Below, piece by piece: positions 50,045 through 52,446 of a stretch of 64,000 bases of DNA. Both the position numbers and the translations under genes were made by a program. Within the stretch, counting starts at the first letter, position 1. Each line of letters starts with the position of its first letter. The notes beneath the pieces were generated by a model, which searched no databases, was not told where the DNA came from, and saw nothing but the letters and a program-made list of their open reading frames with translations. This DNA comes from Heteronotia binoei. Its lineage: Eukaryota. The DNA lies in the NCBI RefSeq assembly GCF_032191835.1, contig NC_083227.1:115072001-115136000 (forward strand), given 5' to 3'.

Positions 50045-50480
50045 TGCCAACCTCCAGGACTGGATTGACAGGAGAAAATGTACCTTGCCAACCTCCAGGA
50101 CTGGATTAACAGGGGAAAATGTACCTTGCCAACCTCCAGGACTGGATTGACAGGGGAAAATGTACCTTGCCAGGACTGGATTGATTGGGGAAAAGGTACC
50201 TTGCCAACCTCCAGGACCGGAGTGAAAGGGGAAAATGTACTTTGCCAACCTCCAGGACTGGATTGACAGGGGGAAAGTACCTTGCCAACCTCCAGGATTG
50301 GATTGAAAGGAGGAAATGTACCTTGCCAACCTCCAGGACTGGATTGACAGGGGAAAATGTACCTTGCCAACCTCCAGGACTGCATCGACTGAGGAACATG
50401 TACCTTGCCAACCTGCAGGACTGGATTGACAGGGGAAAATCTACTTTGCCAATCTCCAGGACTGGAATGACAGGAGAAAA
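50045..50480 (+). repeat. 41-bp tandem array type A in left arm (~10-11 units)
   Basis: CCTTGCCAACCTCCAGGACTGGATTGACAGGGGAAAATGTA; CTGGATT recurs at 50060, 50101, 50142. Confidence 0.95.
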
Positions 50481-50493
50481 TGGAACATTTTCA

Positions 50494-50866
50494 ATGGAAC
50501 ATTCAAATCTAGCATGGCATTCCATATAATTCCACAGGTCAAGCTATTGTGGAACATGCTAATCATACATTGAAACCCACTCTTCAAAAACAATTAAAAG
50601 GAGTGAATTAAAAGGTTCCTATCCAAATGCAGGTTCAGGAACAATTGAATTTGGTCTTATTAACTTGGCGTGGTCCAGTTTCCCTTATTACCTGGGGCCG
50701 CAGGCATGCTGCTGTGTTCTCTCTTACAGGTCCTTTGTGGGTGCCGGCTAAGTGTGTTCGTCCTGCTCATGGCGTGGCATCAGGGTCTCCTAAATCCGAT
50801 TCCCAACTTCAATCTCAGCCTCACCCGGGAGATGGTGCAACGCCCACACACCCAGACAGCTCGTGA
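50494..50866 (+). pseudogene. Class II ERV integrase C-terminal half, decayed
   Basis: WNI..HGIPYNSTGQAIVEHANHTLK (third DDE acidic residue), QLNLVLLT, WRGPVSLITWGRRHAAVFSLTGPLWVPAKCVRP (SH3-like CTD). Confidence 0.85.
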
Positions 50867-51650
50867 TGTCACATGGGGGGATGTGAAGCGTCTAACTAAT
50901 CAAGCTCAACAAACGGAAGAAGCTGGGCAAGAGCCATCTCCAGAGAACTTGGTGGCTGCTGTTTTTACAGCTCACAATGAACTCCGTGATTGTTCTTTGT
51001 TGTTTGTGTTTATGTATTTTGTCTCCTGTCAAGGCGATTAGTTTTGGAGATTGTCTTCAGTTTAATATTTGGGAACGCTTAGCTAACATAAACAACGTTT
51101 CACATTTTTGTCTGACACAACACACTGGTTTACATATGTTATTAGCAAGGCTTCAGGAACTGATACAGCTCTTGGTAAATGTTTAAATGAATCCCAGATC
51201 TCTTATGCAACTTTACCCAACTGGCATTCCCACCTATAAGCTTCCAGTGGATGCCTTAACTTTATATACCCCTTATGTGGCTAACCATGAAAATCTTACT
51301 TGTGCAGATGGTAAATTGCTCCCACCATAAGCCATTGCATGGTTGCCTGCAAACAGTTGCCCCCTTGTGGAAATGTAATGCAACAATTAATGTAACCTGT
51401 AATTATGGCCATATTCCCTTACCACCTGGTTGGTTTTTCTCTTGTGGCCATTGAACTTTTAGTTATATTCCTGCTAATATATCTCTTTCTGTATGTTGTT
51501 TAAGTCGCCTTGCTGTGGTGTTGCCTCAAAAATCCTGGCTTATGGAATCCTCTGCCTCACGCATTAGCAGAGAAACTGTCCCCTTAGACTCTACCTGTGA
51601 TTCTTCTGATATGGCATTATTATCTCAGGCTGAATATGTGTCTTGTTTAC
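50769..51650 (+). pseudogene. ERV env, decayed and truncated early in TM
   Basis: ATG 50769 overlapping pol end; VTWGDVKRLT...PSPENLVAAV long-leader motif; h-region VIVLCCLCLCILSPVKA; NIWERLAN...HFCL; R-I-S-R site (51560-51571) followed by ETVPLDSTC. Confidence 0.7.
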
Positions 51651-51901
51651 AAGAATATGTAAACCGTCAAGAGACGAATATACTTTGCAAGCCAATAATG
51701 CATATGTATTAGTTAGCAATTGGAACAATACACCCCTTTAATACAATCGATTCCAGAGAGTGATGGTGAGGGGTCGGAATGTTTTTGATACCCCATAAAA
51801 AACAGAAGATGAAGGAAATGTCAACGGTCTGGCACACCAACCTTGATTTGACTTCATCTGTAGACTCAGAAGGCAGTCTTAAAAAACAGAAAAGAGTGGG
51901 A

Positions 51902-52446
51902 TGAAGGAAGGGTCAACGGTTGGCAAACCAACCTTGTCCTGAATTCATCCATAGACTTAGAAGGCAGGCCTTCTGTGTGCTTTGCCCCTATGCAAGAATG
52001 CTGAGGGCCTTGGAATGTTCTGCCCTTTCACCTCCTTCCTGGAATACACATTTGGGGTAAAAAGCGAAGGTAAACATCTGTCTCCTTACTCTGCATACCG
52101 CTAGTAAATGATTGTGTAAAGACAAGTGTTGGATTAGTGTTGTTTTAAAAAAAAATTATGCTGTTTTATAATTTTAATGTGTCTATATGTTTAATTCACC
52201 TAATGTATTTTAATTACTGTATTTATAACATGTTTTATTGAATGTTGTTAGCCGCCCTGAGCCTGCCTAGGCGGGGAGGGCGGGATATAAATAAAATTAA
52301 TAATAAAATAATAATAATAATAAGTGTATAAAATAAAACGACCAATGAAAAATAAAAGGAACCATTGTCAGGCAAGACAGAGAGAGACTGGTGCGATGAA
52401 CCTCAACCCTGAGTCGTGTGACATTCCTACAGCTGGGGATCCAACA
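51902..52446 (+). mobile_element. ERV 3' LTR preceded by polypurine tract
   Basis: PPT AAAAAACAGAAAAGAGTGGGA then TG at 51902; TATAAAA 52327, AATAAA 52352; ends CCAACA at 52446. Confidence 0.7.
52130..52321 (+). mobile_element. L2 3' tail inserted in the LTR
   Basis: TTAGCCGCCCTGAGCC...GGGCGGGATATAAAT(AAT)n; 6-bp direct repeat AAGTGT at 52124-52129 and 52322-52327. Confidence 0.75.

What the first reader, a model, noticed from the sequence alone, without database searches (positions are those of the whole stretch)
50480..52446. Was the ERV cargo co-mobilised? Precise right junction, microhomology-deleted left junction
The LTR ends exactly at ...CCAACA (52446) and abuts the minisatellite, as expected for integrase-mediated insertion into the array. 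On the left, the array runs straight into mid-integrase through a duplicated AATGGAACATT (GAAAATGGAACATTTTCAATGGAACATT). The 5' LTR, gag, pro and RT are missing, and the left arm has no type-B units. Inference: a provirus integrated into the foldback element's array, then a deletion removed its 5' part and the left type-B array. If the trimmed composite later transposed, it is a Ricksha-like capture event.
Basis: inference. Interest (0 to 1): 0.7.

Follow-up and report, generated by a model that had tools for sequence, protein, structure and literature searches.

The report
One-off retrovirus scrap inside foldback transposon
A piece of an old endogenous retrovirus sits inside one copy of a mirror-ended jumping element, likely inserted once and then trimmed by a deletion; no second copy of this pairing was found in the genome, although the same jumping-element family has spread two other captured retroelement pieces to many places.

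Summary
Co-mobilisation of the ERV cargo is not supported. Both junctions are unique in the 2.6-Gb own genome at up to 3 mismatches. None of 42 other foldback loci holds the ERV. None of the 12 other copies sharing the window's CR1 insert does either. Two details need correcting. The LTR ends at ...TTCCTACA (52431), not ...CCAACA (52446); 52432-52446 is foldback spacer, so the provirus entered the spacer, not the array. The duplicated AATGGAACATT is not the microhomology: only AATG is shared, and the second copy is likely a templated insertion. The deletion inference holds: sister copies keep left type-B units and a ~1.8-kb spacer. The parent ERV is a 4.2-5.6-kb non-autonomous betaretrovirus-like family that likely already lacked pro and RT. 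The Ricksha-like capture exists, but for other cargo: a 3'-truncated LTR of a different family (22 of 42 loci) and a CR1 piece at one shared junction were amplified by the foldback. The finding itself is an ordinary nested insertion. In passing: two 26-27-kb MULE foldback elements with 99.8% identical cores, perfect 9-bp TSDs and an open 1058-aa frame.

The parts
49801..49808 (.). Left target-site duplication of the foldback element (ATAAAAAA; 9 bp if the next C is counted)
   Evidence: repeated at 54831-54838
49809..50044 (+). Left terminal unique part of the foldback arm (family terminus GGGATGTAC...)
   Evidence: 88% identical to the right end over 218 aligned bases
50045..50482 (+). Left 41-bp type-A array, ~11 units, cut inside a unit at ...GAAAATG; no type-B units
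50483..50491 (+). Junction insert GAACATTTT: 7 bases identical to the ERV flank plus TT; likely a templated insertion primed on the shared AATG
   Evidence: sequence against array units and ERV relatives; mechanism inferred
50492..51901 (+). 3' part of a decayed betaretrovirus-like ERV: integrase C-terminal part, env remnant, partial U3-like duplication (51796-51876), purine tract
   Evidence: 86-91% identical to family copies
51902..52431 (+). 3' LTR (TGAAGG...TTCCTACA), ~320 bp plus a private insert
52124..52327 (+). ~200-bp AT-rich insert in the LTR ending in an (AAT)n tail, possible AAGTGT duplication; likely a 5'-truncated LINE-type tail; edges approximate
   Evidence: class from sequence shape and recall, not from a library match
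52432..52446 (+). Last bases of the foldback's internal spacer; not LTR
52447..52744 (+). Right arm, first type-B units
52745..53350 (-). CR1-like 3' fragment shared at the same junction by 12 other foldback copies: real co-mobilised cargo
   Evidence: the name CR1 is recalled from the translated ORF2 end and tail, Pfam gave no hit
53351..54600 (+). Right arm, remaining type-B then type-A units
54601..54830 (+). Right terminal unique part (...GTACATCCC)
54831..54838 (.). Right target-site duplication
48183..55200 (-). Host intron that holds the whole element (HIG_1_N gene, HIGD2A-like by recall); a NOP16-like first exon starts at 55679 on +
   Evidence: HIG_1_N E=6e-21; GT/AG ends; nucleolar protein 16, E=1e-6

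Best explanation
The ERV piece is found with this foldback element at this one locus only, and it likely arose there by a single retroviral integration followed by a single likely end-joining deletion. Shown: the host is one of a family of non-coding foldback elements (230-bp ends, A then B 41-bp arrays in both arms, ~1.8-kb spacer, 8-9-bp TSDs), and the intact LTR end is joined to the spacer 15 bp before the right array. Inferred steps: (1) a CR1-bearing foldback copy transposed into this intron; (2) a non-autonomous ERV, packaged and integrated in trans, inserted near the right end of the spacer; (3) a break in the foldback was repaired by microhomology-primed end joining (AATG priming, 7 templated bases, re-priming), removing about 5-6 kb: left B units, spacer, left ERV TSD, 5' LTR, gag and the first part of integrase; (4) a LINE-type tail entered the LTR at an unknown time; (5) the trimmed composite left no daughter copy.
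For: Junction patterns over the whole own genome at <=3 mismatches: the left gives 1 match, the window itself. The right gives 2, the window and one 3-mismatch hit with no similarity to the element. In 201-bp junction searches only the window covers both sides among 40 scored of 524 and of 411 candidates. ERV in 0 of 42 other foldback loci, 25 of them seen end to end. The CR1-junction pattern gives 14 matches: the window, 12 other foldback copies and 1 unrelated hit; it recovers 10 of 10 copies known beforehand, and none of the 12 has ERV or LTR. No foldback arm lies beside the cargo in 29 of 29 other ERV loci with 1.5-kb flanks. Internal deletions are common in this family: 18 of 42 loci keep the spacer's right end. 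Templated inserts next to deletions are described for polymerase theta (PMC5068794, passages).
Against: One haploid assembly only; a daughter or donor copy could be polymorphic, lost or unassembled. At 10% divergence a copy would be missed by both junction patterns with probability 0.08, at 12% 0.16, substitutions only. The two families are of similar age (window against relatives: CR1 insert median 90.2%, n=10; ERV internal median 88.7%, n=20), so age does not rule out transposition after the ERV arrived. The window still has both ends and a TSD. The ERV's left TSD is deleted, so integrase action rests on the exact LTR end alone, with one ambiguous A. The left junction can also be read as a 4-bp microhomology deletion followed by a 12-bp tandem duplication and T slippage.
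Confidence: 0.88

Rival explanations
1. The trimmed composite was co-mobilised: it formed elsewhere and jumped here, or it jumped from here, and the other copy is missing from this assembly.
For: Both ends and a TSD are intact. The family did amplify other cargo. The two families overlap in age.
Against: No second copy by three pattern scans, two junction searches and inspection of 42 foldback loci. A single cut-and-paste move leaving one copy cannot be told apart, but nothing points to it.
Confidence: 0.06
2. The ERV piece was copied in by gap repair after the foldback excised: repair switched to an ectopic provirus as template, so no integration and no later deletion took place here.
For: It explains loss of spacer and gain of cargo in one event. 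The left junction shows priming and re-priming, and one A is shared at the right junction.
Against: The right junction falls exactly on the LTR's terminal CA, which template switching has no reason to pick.
Confidence: 0.05
3. The junctions are an assembly artefact in a repeat-rich foldback.
For: No read or contig spanning either junction was listed in 4 of 4 RNA runs laid.
Against: Those runs hold at most 12% of the words and mostly family reads, so they do not test the locus. The junctions make biological sense (exact LTR end, templated insert), and the TSD matches across the element.
Confidence: 0.01

Closest known systems
RICKSHA / RICKSHA_0 (human Repbase; PMC1431705 passages; listed under MuDR in PMC5753468 passages)
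   Same: Non-autonomous inverted-repeat element with the 3' part of an ERV and its LTR inside. At family level this foldback also amplified a retroelement LTR piece.
   Different: RICKSHA is a repeat family with 79-bp TIRs and HERVL/MLT2B cargo. Here the ERV composite is single-copy, the ERV is betaretrovirus-like, and the arms are long tandem arrays. The multi-copy cargo is a 3'-truncated ~940-bp LTR of another family and a CR1 piece.
Mutator/Foldback-type elements (MULE: 8-11-bp TSD, long TIRs, PMC6446971 passages; Tm1, Galileo, Tetris seen in search listing only)
   Same: Long internally repetitive inverted arms, G-rich ends, 8-9-bp TSD, variable array length, internal deletions, cargo uptake.
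   Different: No transposase in any copy examined, and no sequence link to the 16 MULE loci tested, so the superfamily is not established.
Merlin (5'-GG ends, 8- or 9-bp TSD, TIR 24-462 bp, internal tandem repeats; PMC8101967 passages)
   Same: GG ends, mixed 8/9-bp TSD, tandem repeats.
   Different: No DDE_Tnp_IS1595 match in the own genome; arms far longer than 462 bp.
Non-autonomous class II (betaretrovirus-like) ERVs (class features recalled)
   Same: Gag_p10 and Gag_p24, rve and IN_DBD_C, weak HERV-K Rec match, 6-bp TSD, short LTRs, Lys-type PBS by recall.
   Different: Gag ends after capsid, no room for pro/RT, CR1-like piece inside; the window keeps only the 3' 1.9 kb.

Membership tests
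Ricksha-like co-mobilised ERV composite | TIR element enclosing the 3' part of an ERV with LTR | tested here: met
Ricksha-like co-mobilised ERV composite | Several copies with identical cargo junctions and different flanks/TSDs | tested here: not met
   window only
Ricksha-like composite (foldback family, other cargo) | Retroelement piece at identical junctions in many dispersed copies | tested here: met
   LTR piece in 22 of 42 loci, left and right junction motifs in 18 of 42 each; CR1 junction in 12 other copies
Mutator/MULE | 8-11-bp TSD | tested here: met
   8-9-bp duplication with <=1 mismatch in 18 of 24 two-ended copies; the script let ends slide by up to 2 bases
Mutator/MULE | Long TIRs | tested here: met
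   230-bp ends plus arrays, median left/right identity 92.7%, n=24
Mutator/MULE | MULE transposase in the element or in a partner with the same ends | tested here: inconclusive
   70 MULE matches in the genome; 16 loci examined, none carries this family's ends or arrays; 54 not examined
Merlin | 5'-GG ends and 8/9-bp TSD | tested here: met
Merlin | IS1595-type transposase available in the genome | tested here: not met
   0 matches, 1 candidate scored; a blank does not prove absence
Class II (betaretrovirus-like) ERV | Gag_p10/Gag_p24 and retroviral integrase | tested here: met
   on relative L047 and on the window's IN C-terminus
Class II (betaretrovirus-like) ERV | 6-bp TSD | tested here: met
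   clear in 6 of 8 two-LTR relatives; not testable in the window, where the left copy is deleted
Class II (betaretrovirus-like) ERV | RT phylogeny | not testable with these tools
   no RT in the window or in the relatives examined

The most novel reading that the evidence does not exclude
The foldback family is a reptile counterpart of Ricksha: a non-autonomous Mutator-type carrier that took up retroelement pieces in series (an old LTR, then a CR1 piece, both amplified; the ERV last, stalled at one copy) and was driven by a vertebrate MULE transposase, in a genome that still holds near-identical 26-27-kb MULE foldback elements with open frames.
Probability: 0.45. Interest if true: 0.45.

Novelty: new member of a known kind. 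Interest (0 to 1): 0.17.

Why it matters
As posed, little: a one-off nested insertion with a repair scar. Had the ERV piece been amplified, it would have been a second Ricksha-type case of a DNA transposon spreading a retroviral LTR. The family shows that kind of capture with other cargo, giving an ordered series of uptake events. The more valuable lead is the side finding: a 2019 survey asked whether MULEs are really absent from vertebrate genomes (PMC6446971, passages), and this genome has 70 MULE-domain matches, including two young giant elements. Whether that is already in print was not settled.

Tried and rejected
(1) The shared start of nearly all ERV hits at query base 3 looked like a shared breakpoint. 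It is only where the window's ERV sequence begins; 30 of 32 distinct loci continue into upstream integrase. (2) The CR1-like piece upstream of integrase in the ERV family looked like the source of the window's CR1 insert. Rejected: the matches end at different places, and the window's insert has the foldback subfamily's junctions. (3) Sequencing runs: the best holders had 6-12% of the words and were RNA; 4 runs were laid, giving mostly family reads and no listed joint or piece across either junction, so they are uninformative. (4) Autonomous partner: Merlin family 0 matches; 16 of 70 MULE loci examined, no shared ends or arrays; one spacer similarity in L180 covers only the LTR-derived part. 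(5) Age as an argument against co-mobilisation: inconclusive. (6) Earlier findings: nothing near this place or under the words searched. (7) Literature searches were seen as listings, and none named this family; this is no proof that it is undescribed, and Repbase/Dfam could not be searched. No supplements were read.

Full report
Setting. The window is G000:C5:115072001-115136000 in a 2.63-Gb genome; earlier scan notes call it a likely lizard (not tested here). The finding lies inside a 5.0-kb element (49809-54830) with inverted ends, 41-bp arrays and an ATAAAAAA duplication. The element sits in an intron (48183-55200, minus strand) of a HIG_1_N gene, head to head with a NOP16-like gene.

The cargo. 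50492-52431 belongs to a large ERV family (2252 first-look candidates, 40 scored; the 30 best matches are 86-91% identical apart from the window itself). Of 20 relatives fetched with 10 kb, 8 have two LTRs of this type; they are 4166-5641 bp long, with LTR pairs 92.7-97.5% identical and a clear 6-bp TSD in 6 of 8. Copy L047 has Gag_p10, Gag_p24, Gag_p24_C, rve and a weak HERV-K Rec match. Gag and integrase are 1.2 kb apart, and four frames from that gap gave no Pfam hit; that is too short for pro and RT (established knowledge). So the family is non-autonomous and betaretrovirus-like, and pro/RT were likely lost before this copy inserted.

Right junction. Searching 52340-52540 split the hits in two: LTR copies match query bases 1 to about 92 and foldback copies match 92-201. 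LTRs end ...TTCCTACA, window 52431. The following 15 bases match the end of the foldback spacer in 15 of 15 foldback-type hits, 14 of which have the same spacer sequence upstream. The window's LTR (51902-52431) also has a ~200-bp insert absent from the three LTRs aligned.

Left junction. Array units read GACAGG.GAAAATGTACCT; the last unit stops after ...GAAAATG. ERV relatives read ...TGTACA-CAATGGAACATTC, and 30 of 32 distinct loci continue upstream this way; 2 have their own unrelated breaks and none has array sequence (39 rows, 7 duplicates removed). The parents share only AATG. A plain microhomology deletion leaves one copy of the shared bases, so the second AATGGAACATT needs synthesis. The likeliest path is priming on AATG, copying 7 bases, then re-priming, as described for polymerase theta delins (PMC5068794, passages). 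A later 12-bp tandem duplication with slippage fits as well.

The host family. Sister copies have 230-bp ends, A then B arrays in both arms and a spacer of about 1.8 kb. An 8-9-bp duplication with at most 1 mismatch is found in 18 of 24 two-ended copies. 16 of 18 copies with the spacer's right-end motif have left B units; the window has none. The deletion is therefore well supported; its size is about 5-6 kb (3.0 kb of ERV by L032, 1.8 kb of spacer, plus B units; inference). Deletions are frequent in the family.

Co-mobilisation test. The left junction pattern matches only the window. The right matches the window and one unrelated place. In 201-bp searches no other scored hit spans a junction. 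The ERV is in 0 of 42 other foldback loci; these were picked through array, end and spacer queries, 25 were seen end to end, and the family is larger than this sample (471 candidates). A sister composite should also carry the window's CR1 insert. That junction pattern gave 14 matches, recovering all 10 known copies plus 2 partial ones and 1 unrelated hit; only the window has the LTR. Miss probability for both junction patterns is 0.03-0.16 per copy at 8-12% divergence, substitutions only. Against my reading: the families are of similar age, the ends are intact, and only one assembly was searched. Sequencing runs did not help.

What was co-mobilised. The right half of the spacer is the first ~940 bp of a ~1.12-kb solo LTR of another family (TGTGG...CACA, 5-bp duplications in about 5 of the 7 copies with both ends found, of 10 examined). 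It is 72-86% identical to a free copy but about 90% among foldback copies. It is present in 22 of 42 loci, with each junction motif in 18. The ~600-bp CR1-like piece has the same junctions in 10 full copies plus the window. These are Ricksha-type composites in the sense of PMC1431705 (passages): an inverted-repeat element that replicated, gained retroelement sequence and replicated again.

Superfamily. TSD and long arms fit Mutator/Foldback (PMC6446971, passages); GG ends and 8/9-bp TSDs also fit Merlin (PMC8101967, passages). Merlin's domain was not found. MULE gave 70 matches, but none of 16 loci examined shares this family's ends. Membership stays open.

Verdict. A single nested ERV insertion trimmed by an end-joining deletion, not co-mobilised as far as this genome shows (0.88). 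Interest 0.17. Papers were read as passages only; the rest were seen as search listings.

Noticed in passing
G000:C1:~249653130-249679456 (L190, L170, L171, L191) and G000:C9:56131449-~56158670 (L196, L172, L173, L197): Two giant (26-27 kb) foldback elements with ~5-kb inverted arms of 154-bp units, a 15.2-kb core 99.8% identical between copies, different perfect 9-bp TSDs, and an open 1058-aa frame with CG-1, MULE, Ulp1 (Peptidase_C48) and PHD matches. Looks like a very young autonomous MULE in a vertebrate; PMC6446971 (passages) questioned whether vertebrates have MULEs and lists a PHD finger and 9-bp TSD for Rehavkus. Worth its own follow-up.
   Followed up: partly
L174-L187: A second, smaller MULE family (~2.5-3 kb; FLYWCH plus MULE in L174; GGAAAAAA ends with 16-bp repeats) accounts for most of the MULE loci examined.
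   Followed up: partly
window:52745-53350; L200-L213: CR1-like fragment carried at one junction by 13 foldback copies including the window.
   Followed up: yes
L094-L113 spacers; free copies L144-L153: Foldback spacer holds the 5' ~940 bp of a ~1.12-kb solo LTR with 5-bp TSDs; its internal element was not identified.
   Followed up: partly
L036, L045, L049: The same ERV internal region occurs with at least two other LTR types, suggesting LTR exchange among non-autonomous subfamilies.
   Followed up: no
L031-L050, ~240 bp upstream of the window's breakpoint: The ERV family itself carries a ~350-bp CR1-like piece between gag and integrase in most copies.
   Followed up: partly
window:51902-52431 and 55679: The LTR points toward the NOP16-like start 3.2 kb downstream and is antisense to the HIG_1_N host gene; no evidence of LTR-driven transcription was obtained.
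   Followed up: no
window:49810-50042: The foldback's 230-bp end contains its own internal inverted repeats (about bases 25-59 against 197-231), a foldback within the arm.
   Followed up: no
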